From: Sphyrna mokarran | Taxonomy: Eukaryota | Length of the DNA: 64,000 nt | NCBI GenBank assembly: GCA_024679065.1 | Contig: JAGIQG010000009.1 | Coordinates: 91,636,001 to 91,700,000 of the forward strand | Direction: 5' to 3' | Shown: positions 996 through 62,769 of the stretch, piece by piece | Layout: each line of letters opens with the position of its first letter | How positions within the stretch are numbered: the first letter of the stretch is position 1 | Translations under genes and position numbers: made by a program | Notes under the pieces: model-generated | Seen by the model: the letters and a program-made list of their open reading frames with translations, nothing else | Told to the model about the DNA's origin: nothing | Databases searched by the model: none

Positions 996-1047
996 CGGGA
1001 AAGGCCCAGGGAAAACACAGGGAGACGGAGAAAAGGATCAGCAATGT
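996..1047 (-). pseudogene. MHC class I leader exon of gene A with start codon mutated (ATG>ACA); gene body would lie left of the window
   Basis: Reads ACA TTG CTG ATC CTT TTC TCC GTC TCC CTG TGT TTT CCC TGG GCC TTT CCC G|gtaagt (52 nt, phase 1), colinear with ATG-bearing copies at 30393, 31116 and 54646. Confidence 0.75.
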
Positions 1048-11322: not shown

Positions 11323-11366
11323 TCAGTCACTCACTGGAGCTGTTGTGTACGTCCCACTTGGTGAAT
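11323..11366 (-). CDS. Gene B cytoplasmic exon ([14 protein letters not shown])
   Basis: Acceptor ttcacttctgcag; Tyr motif like class I exon 6. An internal gtgagt could act as an alternative donor. Confidence 0.7.
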
Positions 11367-14300
11367 CTGCAGAAGTGAAATAAATGTCAGTTAGAATGGG
11401 GAATAATCCATTCTCAGAGAGTGAGAACACAACAAGTGTGAGGGAATGGAGATTGTGTGAGAAATACTCATTCTCACACTCCCCTCCATCCTTACACTTT
11501 ATGGAGATCCTGTAGATCTCTTCCATTCCATCCATATTCAGTAGGTGAGGATGTGATTGTGTGCGGTGGCTTTAATGATCAATATTATACCTGGTCTGGG
11601 CTGTTCACACAAAGGAAAATCAGGCAGGGAACAAGATGTGTTTATACGTGTGTATCTGTGGATGGGAATTAAATCAGTTCATTCAACACAGTGTCCTGTA
11701 TTCCCAGTACTGGAGATTCCCCATACTCACTCTGTCCCCTCTGATTCTTACCTCTCCGCTGTCTTTTCCAGATGATTATTCCGAATATAACAACCAGTGC
11801 TGAGATCACTGATCCGATTATAATTCCAATATGGGACCATTCTCCACTGTTTCCCGGTATTTCTGAAACACATTTGAATAATATGAGGATTGTCTGTGTT
11901 CCCGGATCCATTCCCAATTCTATGTTCATTGGGGACAATTTGAACTGAAACCACCCCAGTCCAAATGGGATTGGTTGAAGCTTTGCTTTTACACTGGCCC
12001 CGTGGTGGATAAGGGAGTGTCTATGGATCTGCTCTGGATGGACTTCCAGAAGGTCATTGATAAAGTTCCACACAAGAGATTCTTGACAATAATCAGAGTG
12101 TTTGGAATTGAAGGGAATCTTTGTCAGGGGTGAAAATTGGTTGGCAGGAGAGAGACAGGGAATGGCGAGAATGGGAATGTGCTCCCATACAAACACATGC
12201 ACATATCCAGTACAGTTCCTTACCCCACTGATGGAGCTTGGGCTCTGCCAGGCTGCTGTGTTCAATTTGACAGGAGTATTGATCCTCATCCCCAGCATTT
12301 ATTTCAATCTCTTTCTGGATCTGATGGGTTCCATCGTGGCTTGGTCGAATCCCTGAGGATAGTGTCTCAGACATTACCTCTCCGTTCCTTAACCAGTTCA
12401 CCTCGATGTCTGCAGGATAAAAGCCAGTAACCAGGCAGAAGAGAGTGAGGAGCTTGTACTGACTATTGGGCTCACTTCTGGAGATGAACACTTCAGGCTG
12501 TACTGTAATGGGAAAGGGTGAAAACACAAACAATAAACCCACACTGAATGGAATGGGGGAACGGTTTGATAAATCAGTGAAGTTAGAGCAGAACATGGGC
12601 TCAGAACTGAAATCAGTACCTTTCCGTTCAAAATATTCCTTTCCAGCTTCCAAACATTCCTTCAAATGTCGAACAAATTCTCCCTGCAGATATTTTTCCC
12701 AGTAATTATTCCAGGATTGATCGGAATCCCATTTCTCTTTAGTCTTCACTGCGAAGTGATTGGATGCGACCCATCTCATTCTGTCTGGCTCTAAACTAAT
12801 ATAGTCCTTTCCATCGAATCCAAACCGCATCGATCTCTTAATGGAGCCGTCTTCAGTGACCTCGACAGACTGAATCCATTGGAAAATATGGATTCCTGTC
12901 AGAGAGCAAATGCTGATCAATATTCAGTGAACTGGAGGATTAGAAATATTGCTTTGTTAATCAATAAAGTGGAGAAATGATCTTTGTGATAGAATTGTCA
13001 GCAAAACTGAAATCCCTGGAATAAAATAAGCAGCATCAGAATGTAAACAAACTTGCCGAATGGATCGGAAACAGAGTGGCCAGGATTCTCCCAAAATAAT
13101 TCAACTGTCAAATTCGTTTGAAACCTGGAGTAAATCACGTTTGTTTTTACAGCGGGAGTTTCAAAATGAATCTCCCACAATCTGTACATTGCAGAGAGCA
13201 CGAGCAGGTTTCACACTGAAAAGCTGTCGGTGGGGCCTATTCCCGCTGGAGAGACTGACAGCAAAGTGCTGAGTGGGCCACTGCACATGTGCCAATCAGT
13301 CAGATTGGTGCATGCTCTGTCGCCCCTGTCTACCGGCCTCCCAATTTCCGGCTGGCTCGATCGCTGGTCAGTTCTGCAATTCCCACAACATTAGCCCCCC
13401 ACACAGCCCGATCTCTGGTCCCCTGAACATTCACGCACCATCTCCCATCCCTCCTGCCCTTCCAGCCCGCCCTAATCTCCAGTACCCTCTGATCCCACAT
13501 GCTCTTGACAATTACCCCTTCCCACAGTGCCAACCATTCCACACTCCGTAGTGCCAGCTCGCCCTCCCCCGTGTAAGGCAGCCCCACTACCCCCCACCCC
13601 CAGCGCGCTGACCCCACACCTACCCCGATGGCCAGCCCTGATCGTTGGCCTTCCTCCTTCCCCCATGATCCTCCATGGTGGCACAGTGGACAGTGAAGAA
13701 AGTTATCTCCAATTCGAATGGGATCTTGATCAATTGGGCCAGAGGGCTGACGAATGACAGATGGAGTTTAACTTAGGCAAATGTGAGGTGATGCATTTGA
13801 CCTCAACAGATCAAATCCACTGAAGAATGTGACTTCCTTCAGAAACTAAATAGGGATCAATAATCAATAGACAATCTTTTCAGTGGAGAAAGGGAATTTA
13901 GTCTGAGATAGAAATGGATGGAATCTTCCTCTGCCTTTAGAAATAAGAAGCTCAGCAGTGAGGTTACTAAATTAGATGGAGCCGGTGCTGGGAGACTGAG
14001 TTCAGTGTCCCAGGGGTCAGTGCTGGTGGGACTGAGTTCAGTGGCCCAGGGGTCAGTGCTGGGGGATGGACTGAGTTCAGTGTCCCAGGGGTCAGTGCGA
14101 GGGGACTGAGTTCAGTGTCCCAGGGGTCAGTGTTGGGGGACTGAGTTCAGTGGCCAGGGGTCAGTGCTGGGGGACTGAGTTCAGTGTTCCAGGGGTCAGT
14201 GCTGGGGGACTGAGTTCAGTGGCCCAGGGGTCAGTGCTGGGGGCTAAGTTCAGTGTCCCAGGGGTCAGTGCTGGTAGGACTGAGTTCAGTGGCCATGGGT

Positions 14301-17300
14301 CAGTGCTGGGGGACTGAGTTCAGTGTCCCAGGGGTCAGTGCGAGGGGACTGAGTTCAGTGTCCAGGGTCAGTGCTGGGGGACTGAGTTCAGTGGCCCAGG
14401 GGTCAGTGCTGGTAGGACTGAGTTCAGTGCCCAGAGGTCAGTGCTGGGGGACTGAGTTCAGTGGCCCAGGGGTCAGTGCGGGGGACTGAGTTCAGTGGCC
14501 AGGGGTCAGTGCTGGTAGGACTGAGTTCAGTGGCCCATGGGTCAGTGCTGGGGACTGAGTTCAGTGCCCAGGGGTCAGTGCTGGTAGGACTGAGTTCAGT
14601 GGCCCAGGGGTCAGTGCTGGGGGACTGAGTTCAGTGTCCCGGGGTCAGTGCTGGGGGACTGAGTTCAGTGGCCCAGGGGTCAGTGCTGGGGGACTGAGTT
14701 CAGTGGCCCAGGGGTCAGTGCTGGGGGACTGAGTTCAGTGGCCCAGGGGTCAGTGTTGGGGGACTGAGTTCAGTGTAAGGTTGTACATCAATACGCTGAT
14801 TCTCTCTGCCTGTTCTTACCGGATGTCTGGTTTGTGATCTTCAGCACTGTATTTAGATTCTCCTTTGCCGTGTCTGACCGTGAGTTCACCAGTTCTGTGA
14901 TATAATCCCAGAATTCAGATGTGATATTTTCAGCCATGAACCTCTGCCTGGGAATGCAGCGACGGATATTAGTGTCATGATATCGTACTTGGACACCATT
15001 GACCACTCCAATGCTTGTGACCTCAGGAAAATCTTCTATCCCAGAGACAACAGTGTATAACACTGTGAGTGTGTTAGTGTCTGTAAATGAAAGAGTTCAT
15101 AGGATTGGTTAATAAACACCGTCTGATCATTAGAACAGTCTCGCTGGACTTCAACATTCCTTCTCCCTCCCCACCCTGTCCCCAATCACTACCCCTACAG
15201 AGCCTCCCAAACACAATCCTTACTCCTGATCAACACCCCCTCTCCGAATCACTATCCTCTCTCCGATCACCAATTGTATCCCTTCCCCCTGATTACCCCA
15301 TTCCTTCCCTCAATTATCACCCCTTACCCTGATCACCACTTCCCTCACCAATCACCAACCCCCCCATCTGATCACCATCCTCTCTCCCATTACCACCCCC
15401 TCCCCGATTATCACCCCTTACTCCGATCACTACCCCCTCCGCCAATCACCAATCACAACCCCCTCCCCTAATCACCAACCCCTACACCCGATCACCATCC
15501 TCTTCCCGATTACCACCCTCCTTCTTAATTACCACCCACTCCCCAATCACCATCCCCTCCACCTCCTCCCAGTCACCACACCCTTTCACCCCGATCACCC
15601 CCCTTCCCAATCAACACCCCCTCAATCCACCCCCTCCTCTCAATCATCATCAGAGCCATTCCTCCTGAACACCACCCCAAATAGGCAGTGACATGGTCTG
15701 GAAGGCTGTGTAAGTGGTCGTCAGGCAGGAAGGGTCAGTGTCCATCCCATCCTGATATCGGTCCCGTCTGTTGCCCCTGCAATGTCGAGCCACCCGCCTG
15801 ACACTCTGCAGCCTCCCAGCACCCGGCCTCCAAGGATATTCCTCCAAACCCTCAGTCACCCCCACTCACAACCACAGACTGCCGAGGCACAGCCCTGATA
15901 AACCCACCCTATCACCTCACCCCCTACACCCTGTATCCTTCCAGCCATCAGATTTTCAATCCCTCCTTTATCCCCAAAGGATAAAGTGACCCATAAACAC
16001 CAGGATCATGTCAAGACTGCAGGTGGGGTTGCCGAGCTGCATCTCCTCACTATCTTTGAGGAGCACTATGGGGCTAGCAGGGAAGGGTGAGGAGGGAACG
16101 GTCACTGACAGCCAGGTCAGGGTTCATCATGGAAATGAGCATTTCCAAGACCCTCATTCAAATGACTCATTCCAGGTAAGTGGCATACTGCCCAGACACT
16201 TGTCCCTTTCTACTTTCCTTGTATTCTAATAGAATGCAAGGAAATTGGAAAGGAACTTCATCAAGGAATAAGGGGGGGCTAAAAGGGGTCACGCAAAAGC
16301 ACTGGCCAGCAGGATTAAGGAAAATCCCAAGGCTTTTCATACATATGTAAAGAGCAAGAGGTTAGCCAGGGAGAGGGTTGGCCCACTCAAGGACAAGGGA
16401 GGAAATGTATGTGTGGAGCCAGAGGAAATGGATGAGATATTAAATGAATACTTTGCATGAGTTTTCAACAAAGAGAATGACTTGGGGGATGATGAATCTG
16501 GGAAAGGATGTGTAGAAAATTTGAGTCATGTTGAGATCAAAAAGGAGGAGCTATTGGTTCTTGAGCGATATTAAGGTAGACAAGTCCCGAGGGCCTGATG
16601 GGATATACCCCAGAATACAGAGAGAGGCAAGGGAGGAAATTGCTGGGGCCTTGCGAGAAATCGTTGTATCCTCACCAGTTCCCCCCTCCCATCCTCCCTC
16701 ACTGGCTCCACACATACACAAAGGATTGGAGAATTGCCAATGTCGCTCCTTTGTTTAAGAAGGGTAGCAAGAATAATCCAGGTTATTACAGGCTGGATCA
16801 TCAGTGGCAGGGAAATTATTGGAGAGGATTCTTTGAGACAGGATTTATATCCACTTGGAAATAAGTAGACATATTAATGAGAGGCAACATGGTTTTGTGA
16901 AGGGGAGGTCATGTCTCACAAACTTGATTGAGTTTTTCAAGGAAGTGATGAAGATGATTGATGATATTGTAGCAAGAATAATCCAGGTTATTACAGGCTG
17001 GATCATCAGTGGCAGGGAAATTATTGGAGAGGATTCTTTGAGACAGGATTTATATCCACTTGGAAATAAGTAGACATATTAATGAGAGGCAACATGGTTT
17101 TGTGAAGGGGAGGTCATGTCTCACAAACTTGATTGAGTTTTTCAAGGAAGTGATGAAGATGATTGATGAGGGTAGGGCAGTGGATGTTGTCTACATGGAC
17201 TTCAGTAAGGCCCTTGACAGGATCTCACATGGCAGATTGGTGCAGAAGGTGAAGTCACATGGGATCAGAGATGAACTGGCAAGATGGATACAAAACTGGT

Positions 17301-29300: not shown

Positions 29301-30444
29301 TTTCTTTCCTGCTCCTTGTTACTACCGTGTATAACCTTTTCAAACTACAAACCACAGAAATTAACAGAAACGCTATAATAGTGTACACCAACTACAATGC
29401 CAAGAGCAAAAAGAAAAAATATTTCCCAATCAGCACTCCTGCTTGTAGCCTCTGCTGCCTGTTTCACCTAACTCCCTGTGTCCATCCAACTCCCAAAACA
29501 CTCCTCACAGTCAGATAGCACTCTGTGCAGGAAAAATATGATGTGAAGATGCCGGCGCTCGACTGGGTTAAACACAGTAAGAAGTCTCACAAAACCAGTT
29601 TGAAGTCTAACAGATTTATTTGATAGTAAACGTCACTAGCTTTTGGAAAGTTGTTCCTTCGTCAGGTGATTGCAGAATTCTGAGTGGAGAACTCTCCATT
29701 CACCTGACAAAAGAAGTGTTCAGAAAGCTAGTGGCGTTTATTATCAAATAAACCTGTTGGATTTTAACCTTGTGTTGTGAGACTTCTTACAGGAAAAATG
29801 TAACAGTGAGCCAGCCAGAAGCTGAACTTGGAATGTTCTGATCTTGTTTTCTGCTGCTAATATTTTATCTTTTCCTCTTTGGTACTACAAAGTACTTGGT
29901 TACTAAATCTCCTGTGTTATCTACAGCTCTGCCTGTCAATCTTTAATGGTTCCATATCTCACAGAATCACTCATTTACTGTTAATATATTACTATAAACT
30001 TTTACATTTTCACAATGTCTTTTATGTCAATTTAATCTTTCTGTCCCTCCATTCTTCTCTCTGTTTCTGGACATTTCCATTTTAATTGCTTCAAGCTTCT
30101 CTGATCAGCGTGTTTTCAACATACAAACATGGAGCAGGAGGAGGCCATTCGGCCCCTCGGTTCTGCTCTGTTATTCTGTGGCTGATGTGATTGTGATCTG
30201 AACTCTACTTTCCTCTCAATCTCTCTGTACACTTTCACTCCCTTGTCAGTCATGATGTTATCTAACATTTATATCTGACAGATACACAATAACGTCTGAG
30301 TGAACATCACCCATTTCAAACTCTCACCAAAATATTCAAATTCACCCCAGAGAGAGAGAGAGTGAGAATGGGAGAGTGAATTCTGTACTTACCGGGAGAG
30401 ACCCAGGAAAAACACAGGGAGATGGAGAAAAGGATCAGCAACAT
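11323..30444 (-). CDS. Non-classical MHC class I heavy chain, gene B (340 aa): exons 30444-30393, 15080-14820, 12895-12620, 12502-12224, 11862-11752, 11366-11323
   Basis: Leader, alpha1 (NQT sequon at the N86 position), alpha2 (H93, Q96, FDGKDYI, TKEKW), alpha3 Ig-C1 ([19 protein letters not shown]), TM and tail. All introns are GT-AG phase 1 and the spliced frame is open. Confidence 0.9.
11752..11862 (-). CDS. Gene B connecting peptide/transmembrane exon
   Basis: [37 protein letters not shown]; tttcag acceptor, gtaag donor. Confidence 0.9.
12224..12502 (-). CDS. Gene B alpha3 (Ig C1) exon
   Basis: 279 nt; [44 protein letters not shown]. Confidence 0.95.
12620..12895 (-). CDS. Gene B alpha2 exon
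   Basis: 276 nt; [54 protein letters not shown]. Confidence 0.95.
13985..14775. repeat. 35-bp G-rich minisatellite (~22 units) in intron 2 of gene B
   Basis: Unit ggggactgagttcagtg(t/g)cccaggggtcagtgctg. Confidence 0.95.
14820..15080 (-). CDS. Gene B alpha1 exon
   Basis: 261 nt; [49 protein letters not shown]; tttacag acceptor, gtaag donor. Confidence 0.93.
15160..15650. repeat. C-rich degenerate tandem repeat (ccgatcaccaccc-like); paralog at ~39930-40420 includes a 29-C run
   Basis: Directly visible low-complexity tract. Confidence 0.85.
16230..18375 (+). mobile_element. 5'-truncated CR1 LINE nested in the Harbinger fossil (paralog at ~41430-43340)
   Basis: [39 protein letters not shown] motifs. 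Confidence 0.9.
19558..20149 (-). mobile_element. Young CR1 3' fragment with (TAGAACA)n tail, specific to unit 1
   Basis: TTATA direct repeats flank it; empty site at ~44479-44485. Confidence 0.88.
20560..21500 (-). pseudogene. Harbinger (HARBI1-like) transposase remnant
   Basis: ORFs 20623..21099 and 20852..21097 carry degenerate DDE-family motifs, with frameshifts and an internal deletion. Confidence 0.8.
21648..22071 (-). mobile_element. Young CR1 3' fragment with (TAGAACA)n tail, specific to unit 1
   Basis: GGTT direct repeats; empty site at ~45990-45996. Confidence 0.88.
22180..22514 (+). mobile_element. tRNA-derived SINE sharing its 3' tail with the old LINE at 3900-3963 (paralog at ~46100-46433)
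   Basis: B box GGTTCGAATCC at ~22240; tail gggtaataaatgttggcccagccagt..cacat, A-rich end. Confidence 0.8.
22670..22992 (+). mobile_element. Old SacSINE1/DeuSINE-like SINE (paralog at ~46590-46912)
   Basis: cactctcacctctgactcag..ccagagact..tgctgcactgtcagagg and tail aacagtga..ttcattg..gagctttgg..tcctgg..gtgaag resemble that family, recalled from memory. Confidence 0.6.
23100..29300 (-). mobile_element. Near-full-length degenerate CR1 LINE (ORF1 plus EN/RT ORF2), split by a nested + strand CR1
   Basis: ORF1 SGNH-like pieces ([13 protein letters not shown]; DGLHL-like), EN pieces (LNIEGY), RT pieces (SGVPQGS, FTDD), aagaacataagaa tail near 23100. Confidence 0.88.
24161..26475 (+). mobile_element. 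Nested CR1 LINE with 304-aa open RT C-terminal ORF and V-SINE-containing 3' UTR; TSD CAATC
   Basis: ORF 25040..25954 ([12 protein letters not shown]); caatc at 24156-24160 and 26476-26480. Confidence 0.92.
29538..29789. mobile_element. Penelope-like pLTR-derived inverted repeat with 10-bp flanking direct repeat CAGGAAAAAT
   Basis: The arms of 29577-29790 are reverse complements; degenerate CTGAnGA..GAAA cores. Paralog at 53773-54026. Confidence 0.75.
30393..30444 (-). CDS. Gene B leader exon (proximal), [17 protein letters not shown]
   Basis: ATG, hydrophobic signal peptide and G|gtaagt phase-1 donor, in frame with alpha1. Confidence 0.88.
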
Positions 30445-31115: not shown

Positions 31116-31167
31116 CGGGAGAGACCCAGGAAAAACACAGGGAGATGGAGAAAAGGATCAGCAACAT
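31116..31167 (-). CDS. Second (distal) intact leader exon upstream of gene B; orphan or alternative first exon
   Basis: Same 52-nt coding sequence and donor as 30393-30444, but upstream flank is of the gene A type. Confidence 0.65.
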
Positions 31168-36114: not shown

Positions 36115-36158
36115 TCAGTCACTCACTGGAGCTGTTGTGTACGTCCCACTTGGTGAAT
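36115..36158 (-). CDS. Gene C cytoplasmic exon
   Basis: Identical to the gene B exon. Confidence 0.7.
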
Positions 36159-39100
36159 CTGCAGAAGTGAAATAAATGTCAGTTAGAATGGGGAATAATC
36201 CATTCTCAGAGAGTGAGAACACAACAAGTGTGAGGGAATGGAGATTGTGTGAGAAATACTCATTCTCACACTCCCCTCCATCCTTACACTTTATGGAGAT
36301 CCTGTAGATCTCTTCCATTCCATCCATATTCAGTAGGTGAGGATGTGAGTGTGTGCGGTGGCTTTAATGATCAATATTATACCTGGTCTGGGCTGATCAC
36401 ACAAAGGAAAATCAGACAGGGAACAAGAGGTGTTTATACGTGTGTATCTGTGGATGGGAATTAAATCAGTTCATTCAACACAGTGTCCTGAATTCCCAGT
36501 ACTGGAGATTCCCCACACTCACTCTGTCCCCTCAGTTCTACATTCCCCTCTCTCTGATTCTTACCTCTCCGCTGTCTTTTCCAGATGACTATTCCGATTA
36601 TCCCAAATATAACAGCCAGTGCAGGGATCACTGTTCCGATTATAATTCCTAAATTGAAATTTCCTCCACAGTTTTCTGGTATTTCTGAAAAACATTTGAA
36701 TAATATGAGGATTGTTTCTCTGTTCCCGGGTCCATTCGCAGTTTTCTGTTCACTGGGGACAATTGGAACTGAATCTGCCCATTGAGAATTGATGGGATTT
36801 TCTGAAACACTGGTTTTATACTTGCCCCATTTCACCCTCCAGTGAAGTGACGAAAGATTCCCATTGATGGTGATGTCAAAGCCGTGTTATTCCCAAACCC
36901 ATGGGATATCATCACAGCCAGTTCAGTTCTAATTCTCTCCAATGTCCGTGTGTCCTGTCTTTATTCAATCCCCAGGGTTAAATTGTATGTCCCAGGAGGC
37001 AGCATCACTGATGGTTTTCACATCAAACACACACATACACACAGAACAGTTTGACAGTTCCTTACCCAACTGATAGAGCTTGGGCTCTGCCAGACTGCTG
37101 TGTTCAATTCGACAGGAGTATTGATCCTCATCCCCAGCATTTATTTCAATCTCTTTCTGGATCTGATGGCTCCCATCGTGGTTCGGTCGAATCCCCGAGG
37201 ATAGTGTCTCAGACATTACCTCTCCATTCCTTAACCAGTTCACCTCGATGTCTACAGGATAAAAGCCAGTAACCAGGCAGGAGAGAGTGAGGGGCTTGTA
37301 CTGACTATTGGGCTCTCTTCTGGAGATGAAGACTTCAGGCTGAACTGTAATGGGAAAGGGTGAAAACACAAACAATAAACCCACACTGAATGGAATGGGA
37401 GAACAGTTTGATAAATCAGTGAAGTTAGAGCAGAACATGGATTGAAAACTGAAATCAATACCTTTCCGTCCAAAATATTCCTTTCCAGCTTCCAAATATT
37501 TGTGTAAATGTTGAACAAATTCTCCATGCAGATGTTGTTCCCAGTAATTATTCCAGGATTGATCAGAATCCCATTTCTCTTTAGTCTTCACTGCAAAGTG
37601 ATTGGATGCGACCCATCTCATTCTGTCTGGCTCTAAACTAATATAGTCCTTTCCATCGAATCCAAACTGCATCGATCTCTTAATGGAGCCGTCTTCAGTG
37701 ACATCGGCAGACATTATCCATTGGAAAATATGGATTCCTGTCAGAGAGCAAATGATGATCAATATTCAGTGAACTGGAAGATTGGAAATATTGCTTTGTT
37801 AATCAATAAATTGGAGAAATGATCTTTGTGATAGAATTGTCAGCAAAACTGAAATCCCTGGAATAAAATAAGCAGCATCAGAATGTAAACAAACTTGCCG
37901 AATGGATCGGAAACAGAGTGGCCAGGATTCTCCCAAAATAATTCAACTGTCAAATTCGTTTGAAACCTGGAGTAAATCACGTTTGTTTTTACAGCGGGAG
38001 TACATTGCAATCAGTATATTGCAGAGAGCACGAGCAGGTTTCACACTGAAAAGCTGTCGGTGGGGCCTATTCCCGCTGGAGAGACTGACAGCAAAGTGCT
38101 GAGTGGGCCACTGCACATGTGCCAATCAGTCAGATTGGTGCATGCTCTGTCGCCCCTGTCTACCGGCCTCCCAATTTCCGGCTGGCTCGATCGCTGGTCA
38201 GTTCTGCAATTCCCACAACATTAGCCCCCCACACAGCCCGATCTCTGGTCCCCTGAACATTCACGCACCATCTCCCATCCCTCCTGCCCTTCCAGCCCGC
38301 CCTAATCTCCAGTACCCTCTGATCCCACATGCTCTTGACAATTACCCCTTCCCACAGTGCCAACCATTCCACACTCCGTAGTGCCAGCTCGCCCTCCCCC
38401 GTGTAAGGCAGCCCCACTACCCCGCACCTCCAGTGCGCTGACCCCACACCCACCCCGATGGCCACCCCTGATCGTTGGCCTTCCTCCCTCCCCCATGATC
38501 CTCCATGGTGGCACAGTGGACAGTGAAGAAAGTTATCTCCAATTGCAACGGGATCTTGATCAATTGGGCCAAAGGGCTGACGAATGGCAGATGGAGTTTA
38601 ACTTAGGCAAATGCGAGGTGATGCATTTGACCTCAACAGATCAAAATGTGACTTCCTGTCAGAAATTAAACAAGGATCAATCATCATCAGACTATCTTTT
38701 CAGTGGAGAAAGGGAATTTAGTCTGAGATAGAAATGGATGGAATCTTCCTCTGTCATTAGAAATAGGAAGCTGAGCAGTGAGATTACTAAATTAGATGGA
38801 GCCAGTGCTGGGGGACTGAGCTCAGTGTCCCAGGGGTCAGTGCTGGGGGACTGAGTTCAGTGTCCCAGGGGTTAGTGCTGGGAGACTGAGCTCAGTGTCC
38901 CAGGGGTCAGCGCTGGGGGACTGAGTTCAGTGTCCCAGGGGTCAGTGCTGGGGGACTGAGTTCAGTGTCCCAGGGGTCAGTGCTGGGGGACTGAGATCAG
39001 TGTCCCAGGGGTCAGTGCTGGGGGACTGAGTTCAGTGTCCCAGGGGTCAGTGCTGGGGGACTGAGTTCAGTGTCCAAGGGTCAGTGCTGGGGGACTGAGT

Positions 39101-42100
39101 TCAGTGTCCCAGGGGTCAGTGCTGGGGGACTGAGCTCAGTGTCCCAGGGGTCAGTGCTGGGGGACTGAGTTCAGTGTCCCAGGGGTCAGTGCTGGGGGAC
39201 TGAGTTCAGTGTCCCAGGGGTCAGTGCTGGGGGACTGAGTTCAGTGTCCCAGGGGTCAGTGCTGGGGGACTGAGCTCAGTGCCCCAGGGGGACTGACTTC
39301 AGTGTCCAAAGGGTCAGTGCTGGGGGGACTGAGCTCAGTGTCCCAGGGGTCAGTGCTGGGGGGACTGAGCTCAGTGTCCCAGGGGTCAGTGCTGGGGGGA
39401 CTGAGCTCAGTGTCCCAGGGGTCAGTGCTGGGGGGGACTGAGCTCAGTGTCCCAGGGGTCAGTGCCGGGGGACTAAGTTCAGTGTCCCAGGGGTCAGTGC
39501 TGGGGGACTGAGTTCAGTGTCCCAGGGGTCAGTGCTGGGGGACTGAGTTCAGTGTAAGGTTGTACATCAACACGCTGATTCTCTCTGCCTGTTCTTACCG
39601 AATGTCTGGTTTGTGATCTTCAGCACTGTATTCAGAGTCTCCTTTGCCGTGTTTGACTGTGAGTTCACCGTTTCTGTGATATAATCCAAGAATTCAGGGG
39701 TGATATTTTCAGCAATGAACCTCTGCCTGGGAGTGCAGCGACGGATGTTACTGTCATAATATCCTATTTGGACACCATTGACTATTGCAATGCTTGTGAC
39801 CTCAGGAAAATCTTCTATCCCAGAGACAACATTACGCATCACCATGAGTGTGTTAGTGTCTGTAAAAGAAACAGTTAAAGGGACGGGTCAATAAACATCT
39901 CTGATCATCAGAACAATCTCACAGGACTTCACCATCCCCTCTCCTCCCGTCCCCAATGACTATCCCTACAGAGCCCCTAAACACAATCCCCTACTCCCGA
40001 TCACCATCCTCTCCCCGATCACCACCCTGTCCCCGAAAACCACCCTGTCCCCGAAAACCAACCTATCCCCGAGCACCATCCTCTCCCCGAGCACCACCAC
40101 CTATCCCGATTATCACCCCTTACCCCGATCACTAATCCCTCCCGCAATCATCAATTCCTACATTCGATCACCATCCTCTCTCCTGATTACTACTCCCTCG
40201 TTCCCTCTCTCTTAATTACCACTCACTCCCCAATCATCATTTCCCCCCCAATCACTACCCCTACGTCCCAATAACCATTCTCTCCTCCCGATTACCACAC
40301 CCTCTCTTCCCGATCACCCACCCCTCCCCTGGTCACCACCCCCTCCTCTCAATCACCATTAGAGGCATAACCACCCCCCCCCCCCCCCCCCCCCCCCCCC
40401 CCACCAACCACCACCACCACTGCCGCCGAACACCACCCCGAATGCGCCAGTAACACAGTCTGGGAGGCTGTGTAATCGGCCATCAGTGTCCGCGTCCTGC
40501 TACAGAGGACCGGGGAACCAGTGTCAGAAGAGGATGAATAACCTTCTTTGGGCAGGAAGGGTCAGGGTCCATCCCATCCTGATATCGGTCCCATCTGTTG
40601 CCCCTGCAATGTCGAGTCATCCGCCTGACACTCTGCAGCCTCCCAGCACCCGGCCTCCAAGGATATTCCTCCAACCCCTCAGTCACCCCCACTTACAACC
40701 ACAGACTGCCCAGGCACAGCCCCGATAAACCCACCCCCTACACCCTGTGTCCTTACAGCCATCAGGTTTTCAATCCCTCCTTTCTCTCCATGGGATGAAG
40801 TTGACCATAAGCACCAGGATCATGCAAAACTGGAGGTAGGGTCCCCGAGCTGCATCTCCTCACTACCTTTGAGGATGGCTATGGAGTCAACAGGGAAAGA
40901 TGAGGAGAATGGAATATAAAAGTAGGGAAAGCTTGCGAAAATTATACAAGACACCAGTTAGACCACATCTGGAAAACTGTGATCAGTTTTATTCTCCTTA
41001 TCTCAGGGAAAATATACTGGCATTGGAAGCAGTCCGGAGAAGGTTCACCAGGTTGATACTGAGTATGGAGGGATTTTCTTATGAGGAGAGGTTGAGTAGA
41101 TTGCGCCTGTACTCATTGGAGTTGAGCAGAATGAGAGGTGACCTTATTGAGACATATCGGATTCTCAGGGGTTTGACAGGGTAGACATTGAGAGGTTGTT
41201 TCTCCCTGTGGAAGAATTCCAAGACTGGGGATGGGGTCCCCGAGCTGCATCTCCTCAATGCCTCTGAGGAGCACTATGGGGCTAGCAGGGAAGGGTGAGG
41301 AGGGAATGGTCACTGATGGTCAGGTCGGGGTTCACCATGATAGTGAGCATTTCCAAAACCCGAGTTCAAATGGCTCAATCCAGGTAATGGCATACTGCCC
41401 AGACACTTGTCCCTTTCTACTTTCCTTGTATTCTTCTGGAATACGAAGAATGTGGAAAGAAAGTTAAGCAAGGAGTAAGGAGGGATAAAAAAGATCATAT
41501 AAAAACACTGGCCAGCAGGATTAAGGAAAATGCCAGGGCTTTTTATACATAAGTAAAGAGCAAGAGGGTAGCCATGGAAAGGATTGGCCCACTCAAGGAC
41601 AAGGGAGGGAATGTATGTGTGGAGTCAGAGGCAATGGGCAAAATATTAAATAAATAGTTTGCATCGGTATTCACCAAAGAGAATGACTTGGTGGATGATG
41701 AGTCTAGGAAAAGATGGGTAGATAGTTTGAATGATGTTGAGATCAAAAAGGAGAGATATTGGGGTTCTTGAGAGACATTAAGGTAGAGAAGTCCCCAGGG
41801 CCTAATGGGATATACCCCAGAATACTGAGAGAGACAAGGGAGGAAATTGCTGAGGCCTTGAGAGAAATCTTTGTATCTTCACTGGCTCCAGGGGAGGTCC
41901 CAAAGGATTGAAGAATAGCCAATGTTGTTCCTTTGTTTAAGAAGGATAGCAAGAATAATCCAGGTTATTGCAGGCTGGATCATCAGTGGTAGGGAAAATT
42001 ATTGGAGAGGATTCTTCGAGACAGGATTTGTTCCCACTTGGAAATAAGTAGACATATTAGAGGCAACATGGTTTTGTGAAGGGGAGATCATGTCTCACAA

Positions 42101-54100: not shown

Positions 54101-54697
54101 TTCCTCTTTGGTACTACAAAGTACTTGGTTACAAAATCTCCTGTGTTATCTACAGCTCTGCCTGTCAATCTTTAATGGTTCCATATCTCCCAGAGTCACT
54201 CATTTACTGTTAATATATTTCTGTAAACTTTTACCATTGGTCTTTATATTACCTACACATTTTCACTGTGTCCTTTACCTCAATTTAATCTTTCTGTTCC
54301 TCCATCCTCCCCTCTGTTTCGGGACATTTCCACTTTAATTGCTCCAAGCTTTTCTGATCTGGGTATTTTGAACATACAAACATGGAGCAGGAGTAGGCCA
54401 TTCGGCCCCTCGAGTCTGCTCCGTTATTCTGTGGCTGATGTGATTGTGATCTGAACTCTACTTTCCTCTCAATCTCTCTGTACACTTTCACTCCCGTGTC
54501 AGTCATGATGTTATCTAACATTTATATCTGACAGATACATAATAACGTCTGAGTGAACATCACCCATTTCAAACTCTCACCAAAATATTCAAATTCACCC
54601 CAGAGAGAGAGAGAGTGAGAATGGGAGAGTGAATTCTGTACTTACCGGGAGAGACCCAGGAAAAACACAGGGAGATGGAGAAAAGGATCAGCAACAT
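36115..54697 (-). CDS. Non-classical MHC class I heavy chain, gene C (343 aa): exons 54697-54646, 39859-39599, 37737-37462, 37344-37066, 36684-36565, 36158-36115
   Basis: Same architecture as gene B; GT-AG phase-1 introns and an open spliced frame. Confidence 0.9.
36565..36684 (-). CDS. Gene C connecting peptide/transmembrane exon
   Basis: EIPENCGGNFNLGIIIGTVIPALAVIFGIIGIVIWKRQRR. Confidence 0.9.
37066..37344 (-). CDS. Gene C alpha3 (Ig C1) exon
   Basis: 279 nt; [27 protein letters not shown]. Confidence 0.95.
37462..37737 (-). CDS. Gene C alpha2 exon
   Basis: 276 nt; [46 protein letters not shown]. Confidence 0.95.
38803..39555. repeat. 35-bp G-rich minisatellite (~21 units) in intron 2 of gene C
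   Basis: Unit ggggactgag(t/c)tcagtgtcccaggggtcagtgctg. Confidence 0.95.
39599..39859 (-). CDS. Gene C alpha1 exon
   Basis: 261 nt; [46 protein letters not shown]. Confidence 0.93.
40430..46090. mobile_element. PIF/Harbinger fossil (unit 2 copy) with nested CR1 fragments
   Basis: Plus strand Myb/SANT-like TVWEAV..QRTG..QCQKRMNNLLWAGR at ~40455-40560; minus strand transposase remnant (ORF 44960..45382). Confidence 0.78.
47020..53500 (-). mobile_element. Near-full-length degenerate CR1 (unit 2 copy) with nested + strand CR1 (48067-50695), itself carrying a young CR1 tail (~48143-48400)
   Basis: Colinear with 23100-29300; ORFs 50683..50967, 52046..52306, 52838..53020 and 49164..49661. Confidence 0.88.
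53773..54026. mobile_element. Penelope-like pLTR-derived inverted repeat (unit 2 copy)
   Basis: Arms 53812-54027; CAGGAAAAAT direct repeats. Confidence 0.75.
54646..54697 (-). CDS. Gene C leader exon, [17 protein letters not shown]
   Basis: ATG, signal peptide and G|gtaagt donor. Confidence 0.88.
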
Positions 54698-62075: not shown

Positions 62076-62636
62076 TCAGTCACTCACTGGAGCTGTTGTG
62101 TACGTCCCACTTGGTGAATCTGCAGAAGTGAAATAAATGTCAGTTAGAATGGGGAATAATCCATTCTCAGAGAGTGAGAACACAACAAGTGTGAGGGAAT
62201 GGAGATTGTGTGAGAAATACTCATTCTCACACTCCCCTCCATCCTTACACTTTATGGAGATCCTGTAGATCTCTTCCATTCCATCCATATTCAGTAGGTG
62301 AGGATGTGAGTGTGTGCGGTGGCTTTAATGATCAATATTATACCTGGTCTGGGCTGATCACACAAAGGAAAATCAGACAGGGAACAAGATGTGTTTATAC
62401 GTGTGTATCTGTGTGTGGGAATTAAATCAGTTTATTCAATACAATGCCCCGTATTCCCAGTACTGGAGATTCCTCACACTCACTCTGTCCCCTCAGTTCT
62501 ACATTCCCCTCTCTCTCATTCTTACCTCTCCTTTGACTTTTCCAGATGATTATTCCGAATATAACAGCCAGTGCTGAGATCACTGATCCGATTATAATTC
62601 CAAGATGGGAACGTCCCCCACTGTTTCCTGGGATTT
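62076..62636 (-). CDS. Non-classical MHC class I gene D, partial: TM exon 62636-62526 and cytoplasmic exon 62119-62076; upstream exons beyond the window
   Basis: [37 protein letters not shown] plus [14 protein letters not shown]; splice sites intact. Confidence 0.82.
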
Positions 62637-62769
62637 CTGAAACACATTTGAATAATATGAGGATCGTCACTGTTCTCGGATCCATTCCCAGTTCTCTGTT
62701 CACTGGGGACAATTTGAACTGAAACCACCCCAGTCCAAATGGGATTGATTGAAGCTCTGCTTTTACACT

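What the first reader, a model, noticed from the sequence alone, without database searches (positions are those of the whole stretch)
14956..14958. Lone alpha1 cysteine at the position of MR1's ligand-bonding Lys43
Seen: [10 protein letters not shown] (B) and DSNIRRCTPR (C, codon 39735-39737). In gene C this is the only Cys in alpha1+alpha2, and gene C also has Arg at position 9. Established: the segment aligns without gaps to MR1 DSVTRQKEPR, whose K43 forms a Schiff base with metabolite ligands and works with R9; the HLA equivalent (residue 45) faces the B pocket. Inference: a groove-facing free thiol could capture electrophilic or thiol ligands covalently, or sense redox state, analogously rather than orthologously to MR1. 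This is speculative.
Basis: partly seen in the sequence, partly recalled or inferred. Interest (0 to 1): 0.7.

Follow-up and report, generated by a model that had tools for sequence, protein, structure and literature searches.

The report
Shark MHC subfamily's fixed pocket cysteine
These two intact shark immune-display genes, most likely of the known UEA family, carry an unpaired cysteine that marks an old multi-species subgroup and sits at the same place as the ligand-bonding lysine of human MR1, but it more likely just shapes the floor of the binding pocket than bonds to ligands as MR1 does.

Summary
Codons 14956-14958 (gene B) and 39735-39737 (gene C) are TGC on the minus strand: Cys42 of the alpha1 domain in two intact shark nonclassical class I genes. 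Synteny and shark-only homologs place them in the UEA lineage. Cys42 aligns with HLA residue 45 (B pocket) and MR1 Lys43. It is not a one-off: it marks one supported clade from three shark orders (39 of 43 rows; losses Ser, Ser, Ser/Asn), is absent from the other 43 family rows, and is rare elsewhere (1 of 178 class I domains). It is 'lone' mainly because the whole family lacks the alpha2 disulfide (0 of 86). The MR1 analogy is otherwise weak: Arg9 occurs in 2 of 86 rows, the Tyr7/Tyr62/Trp69/Arg94/Trp156 cradle is missing, and a short neutral residue resembles MR1-K43A, which loses the switch. Other subgroups put Met, Thr, Ile or Ser there, and its size trades off with residue 65 above it. 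Best reading: a pocket-floor residue (0.5). A reactive thiol stays open (0.2), because Cys42 stays fixed while its neighbours vary. Side-chain exposure could not be measured.

The parts
14956..14958 (-). Cys42 codon (TGC) of gene B; equals HLA 45 / MR1 Lys43
14820..15080 (-). Gene B alpha1 exon (261 nt)
   Evidence: AG/GT ends; a 215-nt contig of run X1 matches 14824-15038 with no differences, and contigs run on into leader and alpha2 sequence at the exon edges
12620..12895 (-). Gene B alpha2 exon; lacks the canonical Cys101/Cys164 pair (Val98, Phe161); has Cys168
12224..12502 (-). Gene B alpha3 exon (Ig C1, Cys202/Cys257), after a 117-nt in-frame intron
   Evidence: joint 12502/12620 in contigs of X1 and X2
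11752..11862 (-). Gene B connecting peptide and transmembrane exon
11335..11366 (-). Gene B first cytoplasmic exon (3' end approximate)
   Evidence: joint 11366/11752 in contigs
30393..30444 (-). Gene B leader exon (an identical copy lies at 31116-31167)
39735..39737 (-). Cys42 codon (TGC) of gene C; only Cys in alpha1+alpha2
39834..39836 (-). Arg9 codon (CGT) of gene C; shared only with paralog L004
39599..39859 (-). Gene C alpha1 exon
37462..37737 (-). Gene C alpha2 exon, no Cys
37066..37344 (-). Gene C alpha3 exon
36565..36684 (-). Gene C connecting peptide and transmembrane exon, with an extra extracellular Cys278
36127..36158 (-). Gene C first cytoplasmic exon (3' end approximate)
54646..54697 (-). 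Gene C leader exon

Best explanation
Cys42 is a fixed marker of one expanded, multi-order subgroup of shark nonclassical class I genes (likely UEA), and it likely acts as a small, unpaired residue lining the floor of the B pocket that helps set pocket size rather than bonding to ligand. Shown: the residue, its position, its clade-wide retention, and the family-wide loss of the alpha2 disulfide that leaves it alone. Inferred: it points up under the alpha1 helix next to residue 65 (HLA 67), as HLA 45 does. The subgroup swapped the common large 42 / Gly65 pair for Cys42 / Val65 and often gained Gly33, reshaping the N-terminal end of the groove, while the invariant Met110/Trp143/Trp149/Trp153 patch and Thr139/Lys142 would hold the family's shared ligand features non-covalently.
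For: Outside the clade the same position is Met 15, Thr 11, Ile 9, Ser 4, Val 2, Ala 1 and Leu 1 of 43: a small or hydrophobic slot. The 3 parsimony losses in the clade give Ser (3 rows) and Asn (1 row). Volumes at 42 and 65 are anticorrelated over 86 rows (rho -0.52; kin are not independent), and their summed mean is similar in and out of the clade (236 vs 226 cubic A). Across 178 non-UEA alpha1 domains the site takes 15 residues, mostly Ala, Met, Leu, Thr, Val. Residue 45 lines the B pocket in HLA-B27 and Mamu-B*098 (passages). A homolog model has a normal class I groove at pLDDT about 80-94 without the alpha2 disulfide, 2.0 A from HLA alpha1/alpha2. The MR1 cradle and Arg9 do not travel with the Cys.
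Against: Cys42 changes 3 times in the clade against 11 times at the same site outside (one-sided p 0.038; only 8th of 119 sites). Its pocket neighbours 23, 33 and 35 change 16, 11 and 16 times in the clade against 3, 4 and 4 outside. A purely steric residue would be expected to vary with its neighbours. It is the most clade-diagnostic residue (0.91 vs 0), and Cys is rare at this site elsewhere (1 of 178). Val7 and Gly33 (26 of 43) would open the pocket around it.
Confidence: 0.5

Rival explanations
1. Reactive pocket thiol: Cys42 sits at the bottom of an opened B pocket and captures electrophiles, aldehydes or thiol-bearing ligands covalently, in analogy to MR1 Lys43.
For: Same position as Lys43. 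Retained in 39 of 43 rows across three shark orders while neighbours 23/33/35 vary. No partner Cys in 24 of 39 carriers. Gly33, His68 and Val65 are co-diagnostic. A B-pocket Cys can be chemically reactive (HLA-B27 Cys67; passages and a reference title).
Against: Arg9 in 2 of 86 rows. Of MR1's Tyr7, Tyr62, Trp69, Arg94, Tyr152, Gln153 and Trp156, only Tyr152 is matched. The Cys side chain is about 3.5 A shorter than Lys (general chemistry), so it would sit deeper. MR1's switch needs a charge, and K43A is ligand-independent. Genes B and C both lack the clade's His68, and B fills the pocket with Arg33 and Arg68. Ser is tolerated.
Confidence: 0.2
2. Folding or oligomer role: the unpaired Cys forms transient mixed disulfides with ER oxidoreductases or heavy-chain dimers (as proposed for HLA-B27 Cys67 and HLA-G), or pairs with Cys35 in the few paralogs that have it.
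For: The family has lost the alpha2 disulfide (0 of 86). Four rows have Cys35, all with Cys42; 35 and 42 lie on the two strands of one hairpin in the model. Cys67-linked HLA-B27 dimers are described.
Against: 47 of 86 family rows manage without Cys42, so it does not replace the lost disulfide. Cys35 is absent from genes B and C and is one transition from Tyr at a highly variable site. HLA-G's dimer Cys42 is three residues earlier in HLA numbering, in the exposed loop (recalled); the shared number is a coincidence.
Confidence: 0.13
3. Founder residue without special role: Cys arose once in the ancestor of an expanding subgroup and persists because buried Cys changes slowly.
For: One gain explains all carriers (4 changes in all). 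21 of 86 alpha1 sites are as conserved or more. The slowdown is modest. Gene conversion among tandem copies could preserve it (inference).
Against: Among alpha1 groove-facing sites it is the least variable in the clade (3 changes; others 5-16). Cys at most other alpha1/alpha2 sites in this family appears in only 1-8 rows.
Confidence: 0.12
4. Metal site: Cys42 with His68 (and His164) binds a metal ion in the groove.
For: His68 is in 37 of 43 clade rows against 13 of 43 outside.
Against: Genes B and C have Arg68 and Gln68 yet keep Cys42. HLA 45 and 70 are not in direct contact (recalled).
Confidence: 0.05

Closest known systems
Shark nonclassical class I lineage UEA (Almeida et al. 2021, J Immunol 207:824; seen only as a citation; described in passages of PMC10751288 and PMC12562908)
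   Same: Multicopy, in the class Ib cluster between a BET-domain gene (90.78 Mb) and a ZIP transporter (93.68 Mb), beside UDA-, UFA- and UGA-like genes. Every named homolog is from a shark. A nurse shark reference of this family (labelled UCA in the PMC10751288 supplement) has the same alpha2 without the Cys pair.
   Different: That reference has Met at position 42; genes B and C belong to the Cys42 subgroup. Whether the UEA paper already notes this Cys could not be checked.
MR1 (human; Lys43 Schiff base; PMC3804952, PMC12058573 passages)
   Same: Class I fold; Cys42 at the Lys43 position; Ser at 24 and Tyr152 equivalents; Arg9 in gene C only; aromatic-rich groove.
   Different: Cys, not Lys. 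No Tyr7, Tyr62, Trp69, Arg94 or Trp156 equivalents. No alpha2 disulfide. Large multigene family, not a near-monomorphic gene. The invariant aromatics lie towards the middle and F end of the groove. Orthology to MR1 was not tested on a tree; the MR1 match (24 bits) is below that of classical fish and bird class I.
HLA-B27 (unpaired B-pocket Cys67)
   Same: An unpaired Cys in the B pocket of a class I heavy chain.
   Different: Cys67 is on the helix in a classical allele that keeps its disulfides; here the Cys is on the floor strand (HLA 45) and fixed across species.
Mamu-B*098 (N-myristoylated lipopeptide in an enlarged B pocket; PMC4735555 passages)
   Same: Residue 45 lines a B pocket reshaped by small residues; Thr143/Lys146 equivalents are retained at the F end.
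   Different: In B*098 residues 9, 70, 97 and 99 are small; here they are mostly bulky (Tyr9, His/Arg68, Trp94, Arg/Trp/Gln96), so the same acyl pocket is not predicted.

Membership tests
Shark UEA class Ib lineage | Multicopy genes in the class Ib cluster between brd2/b2m and slc39a7/rxrb, with UDA and UFA (PMC10751288) | tested here: met
   Cluster at 90.98-91.73 Mb of contig C1548; BET domain at 90.78, ZIP at 93.68; UDA-like L021, UFA-like L023, UGA-like L019 adjacent; the UBA-like cluster is separate at 95.6-95.8 Mb, before a TED-domain gene at 96.36. Flanking genes are identified by domain only.
Shark UEA class Ib lineage | Present in sharks, not in rays or chimaeras (recalled from the abstract of Almeida 2021) | tested here: met
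   75 of 76 hits carry a shark name, 1 is unnamed; none names a ray or chimaera. A word-seeded search is weak evidence of absence.
Shark UEA class Ib lineage | Loss of the classical peptide-terminus residues | tested here: met
   Val7, Phe57 (59), Ile61 (63), Ile82 (84), His164 (167) in B and C; Tyr119, Thr139, Lys142, Trp143 are retained.
Shark UEA class Ib lineage | Clusters with sequences named UEA in the original paper; sublineage assignment | not testable with these tools
   Paper not held. The supplement of PMC10751288 has no 'UEA' label; its family member is labelled UCA and was compared by eye only.
MR1 | Lys43 able to form a Schiff base | tested here: not met
   Cys in B and C; Lys in 0 of 86 family rows.
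MR1 | Arg9 and Arg94 ligand contacts | tested here: not met
   Arg9 in 2 of 86 rows (gene C yes, gene B no); position 94 is Trp in B and C.
MR1 | Aromatic cradle Tyr7, Tyr62, Trp69, Trp156 (plus Tyr152) | tested here: not met
   Val7, Ile61, Arg/Gln68, Tyr/His156; only Tyr152 matches.
MR1 | Ligand-gated ER exit; covalent metabolite ligand | not testable with these tools
   Needs expression and MS.
Classical class Ia (shark UAA) | Alpha2 Cys101-Cys164 disulfide and A-pocket tyrosines | tested here: not met
   0 of 86 family rows have the pair; the UAA-like gene L017/L043 of this genome has it.
Groove-facing free thiol | Sulfur exposed to the groove in the folded protein | not testable with these tools
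   The structure tool gives confidence and secondary structure but no coordinates; orientation is inferred from HLA 45 and MR1 43.

The most novel reading that the evidence does not exclude
A subgroup of shark UEA molecules, kept across three shark orders, evolved independently of MR1 a covalent ligand trap at the same pocket-floor position, using a thiol instead of an amine. It would present electrophilic or thiol-containing metabolites, and paralogs would vary the pocket walls (23, 33, 35, 9, 96) around a fixed Cys. Loss of the alpha2 disulfide would leave it free of competing cysteines.
Probability: 0.2. Interest if true: 0.85.

Novelty: new variant of a known kind. Interest (0 to 1): 0.4.

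Why it matters
No ligand is known for shark UEA molecules in the papers I could read. A single residue that marks the largest subgroup sampled here (43 of 86 rows) gives a cheap, sharp experiment (Cys42Ser, thiol labelling, intact mass) in a system where related shark proteins (UAA 6LUP, UFA 8GM8, UGA 9CH4) have already been crystallised. If the thiol carries ligand, covalent antigen capture arose twice at one position of the class I fold and would extend to thiol chemistry. If not, it is a useful subgroup marker and a caution that matching MR1's Lys43 position does not imply MR1 chemistry.

Tried and rejected
1) Measuring the Cys orientation: two AlphaFold models of homologs (P0004, mean pLDDT 60.9; P0006, 71.4) give no coordinates, so exposure was not measured. 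The spliced window proteins themselves were not folded. No support for MR1 kinship either way. 3) Diversifying selection among 7 Cys42 paralogs of this genome: dN/dS 0.81 at 41 groove codons vs 0.65 elsewhere, not above 1; all 8 Cys codons are TGC, so they say nothing on selection. 4) Cys42 as a replacement for the lost alpha2 disulfide: rejected, 47 of 86 rows lack both. 5) HLA-G-type dimer Cys: rejected on register (HLA 45, not 42). 6) Expression: no holder is on record as RNA; runs X1-X3 are guessed RNA, so the contigs show spliced forms but not level or tissue; X4 laid nothing. 7) The UEA and UDA papers could not be read. Searches turned up no paper whose listing or passages mention this Cys; that is weak, because the main paper is not in the library. 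8) HLA labels for alpha2 positions 111-144 were off by one and were corrected; gene C exon offsets were wrong and were corrected. The L012 row was a pattern mis-hit (Leu42).

Full report
Observation. They are residue 42 of the mature alpha1 domain in two tandem MHC class I genes. Both genes have leader, alpha1, alpha2, alpha3, transmembrane and first cytoplasmic exons with AG/GT ends and no stop (337 and 340 codons as modelled). Gene C's cysteines are 42, 202, 257 and 278, so Cys42 is alone in alpha1+alpha2; gene B also has Cys168. Gene C has Arg9, gene B Tyr9. In run X1 (guessed RNA) a 215-nt contig is identical to gene B 14824-15038, which covers the Cys codon. Contigs of X1, X2 and X3 leave the exon at its edges into leader and alpha2 sequence, and contigs of X1 and X2 skip the 117-nt and 385-nt introns. 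Spliced forms of this family therefore exist; level and tissue are unknown.

Position. The alpha1 exon matches human MR1 over ranges of equal length (63 vs 63 residues; 32 vs 32). The MR1 alignment was not printed, but chain 4lcw_A, titled MR1-K43A, scores 1.3 bits above wild-type MR1 in both searches, which fits Cys42 facing residue 43. In the published alignment of PMC10751288 (supplement part 97) the same column holds HLA-A2 Met45, and none of its 26 reference alpha1 rows has Cys there. Residue 45 is listed as lining the B pocket in HLA-B27 (PMC3087312 passages) and Mamu-B*098 (PMC4735555 passages). In models of two homologs, residue 42 is at the start of the short fourth strand, across a hairpin from residue 35. 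The better model has pLDDT about 80-94 over alpha1/alpha2 and lies 2.0 A from the HLA groove domains. No coordinates are returned, so the sulfur's exposure is inferred, not measured.

What the genes are. The genome holds 17 alpha1 exons of this family among 23 matches, most in a tandem array at 91.05-91.73 Mb of contig C1548. The array lies between a BET-domain gene (90.78 Mb) and a ZIP transporter (93.68 Mb), next to single genes that match UDA, UFA and UGA references. A second multicopy class I cluster with the normal alpha2 disulfide lies at 95.6-95.8 Mb before a complement TED-domain gene. PMC10751288 (passages) places UDA, UEA and UFA in the first setting and UBA in the second. Of 76 homologs of the groove domains, 75 carry a shark name and one is unnamed. 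I therefore read these as UEA. The original UEA paper could not be read, and the supplement labels its nurse shark member of this family 'UCA', so the name rests on synteny and distribution.

Why the Cys is lone. The canonical Cys101-Cys164 pair is absent in 86 of 86 family rows, and also in the published nurse shark and dogfish references. Any alpha1 Cys is therefore unpaired by default. Cys42 is the only alpha1+alpha2 Cys in 24 of 39 carriers.

Conservation. I aligned 94 rows: 72 of the 76 hits (four with 39-51% coverage left out), two fused proteins split in two, genes B and C, and 16 other genes of this genome. For the tree I dropped six more (four duplicates, one truncated, one alpha1-only); two of the remaining 88 are outgroups. 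Cys42 falls in one clade (support 98/90): 39 of 43 rows, with one gain and three losses, to Ser (3 rows) and Asn (1 row). It includes catsharks and houndsharks, basking and white sharks, and bamboo, epaulette and whale sharks. It was not seen in horn shark (0 of 3), sevengill (0 of 3), sawshark (0 of 2) or zebra shark (0 of 3) rows. Outside the clade the site is Met, Thr, Ile, Ser, Val, Ala or Leu, never Cys (0 of 43). Among 178 non-UEA alpha1 domains from the best 150 cluster representatives, Cys occurs once and Lys 16 times.

Against the MR1 analogy. Arg9 is in 2 of 86 rows, gene C and its nearest paralog, so it is a recent change unrelated to the Cys. MR1's ligand site uses Tyr7, Arg9, Lys43, Tyr62, Trp69, Arg94, Tyr152, Gln153 and Trp156 (PMC12058573 passages). 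Genes B and C have Val7, Tyr/Arg9, Cys42, Ile61, Arg/Gln68, Trp94, Tyr152, Trp153 and Tyr/His156. MR1's switch works by neutralising the charge of Lys43, and K43A refolds empty and reaches the surface without ligand. A short neutral Cys resembles that mutant, so the MR1 switch as such cannot be copied. The residues invariant across the whole family, Met110, Trp143, Trp149 and Trp153 (HLA 114, 147, 152, 156), lie at the middle and far end of the groove, away from Cys42.

For a steric role. Residue 42 and residue 65 (HLA 67, above it) trade volume: Cys/Val 27 rows, Met/Gly 12, Cys/Ala 8, Ile/Gly 8, Thr/Gly 6 (rho -0.52 over 86 related rows), with similar summed volume inside and outside the clade. 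The losses are to residues of similar size.

For a thiol-specific role. Within the clade the site changes 3 times, against 11 outside on a tree of similar length (one-sided p 0.038; 8th of 119 sites). Its neighbours 23, 33 and 35 change 16, 11 and 16 times in the clade, against 3, 4 and 4 outside. A fixed Cys amid varying walls is what a ligand anchor would look like, and Gly33 (26 of 43) with Val7 would open the pocket. But 21 of 86 alpha1 sites are as conserved, no diversifying selection shows among this genome's seven Cys42 paralogs (dN/dS 0.81), and gene B fills the pocket with Arg33 and Arg68.

Verdict. A real, lineage-conserved feature of a known family. Most likely a pocket-floor residue (0.5); covalent capture 0.2; folding or dimer role 0.13; founder effect 0.12; metal site 0.05. 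It works like HLA residue 45; it is not MR1. Searches found no paper mentioning it, but the paper most likely to show it is not in the library, and its alignments and supplements may already display this Cys. Papers seen: PMC10751288 (passages; supplement parts 1, 97, 98), PMC12562908, PMC3804952, PMC12058573, PMC3087312, PMC5355494, PMC8236899, PMC4735555 (passages only); Almeida 2020 and 2021 (citations only; content recalled). Interest 0.4.

Noticed in passing
L007 alpha1 exon (G000:C1548:91435888-91436145); proteins P0003, P0001 second half, P0040: Cys35 together with Cys42, on the two strands of one hairpin; a possible small intradomain disulfide in these paralogs. All 4 rows with Cys35 have Cys42.
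   Followed up: partly
window 36565-36684 (-): Gene C has an extra Cys (278) in the connecting peptide, a candidate for disulfide-linked dimers; gene B lacks it.
   Followed up: no
window 12620-12895 (-): Gene B has Cys168 at the HLA Tyr171 position, near the A pocket; 2 of 86 rows.
   Followed up: partly
window 31116-31167 and 30393-30444 (-): Gene B has two identical leader exons about 720 bases apart.
   Followed up: no
window about 996-1047 (-); L012, L040, L050: The leader of the next gene downstream starts with ACA instead of ATG and its alpha2 exon is split across two frames: likely a pseudogene.
   Followed up: partly
family-wide alpha2 exons, e.g. window 12620-12895: Met110, Trp143, Trp149 and Trp153 are invariant in 86 of 86 rows, and alpha2 is more uniform across paralogs than alpha1: the family's shared ligand or receptor surface likely lies here.
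   Followed up: partly
window 12503-12619 and 37345-37461: The alpha2-alpha3 intron is 117 bases, in frame and stop-free in both genes; contigs show it spliced out, with low cover inside it.
   Followed up: partly
window 13985-14776 and 38803-39555: A tandem repeat of about 35 bases fills much of the alpha1-alpha2 intron in both genes.
   Followed up: no
L025 (G000:C1548:91489027-91489299); L015: Paralog L003/L025 keeps Cys42 but has a stop in alpha2; L015 is an inverted, broken alpha1 fragment with Cys42.
   Followed up: no
P0080, P0084, P0094 and others: Lys at the MR1 43 position occurs in 16 of 178 non-UEA class I domains, including ones resembling the teleost Z-lineage reference.
   Followed up: no
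window 62527-62640 and 62088-62120 (-): Transmembrane and cytoplasmic exons of a further family gene whose alpha1 (L013, Thr42) lies beyond the window.
   Followed up: partly
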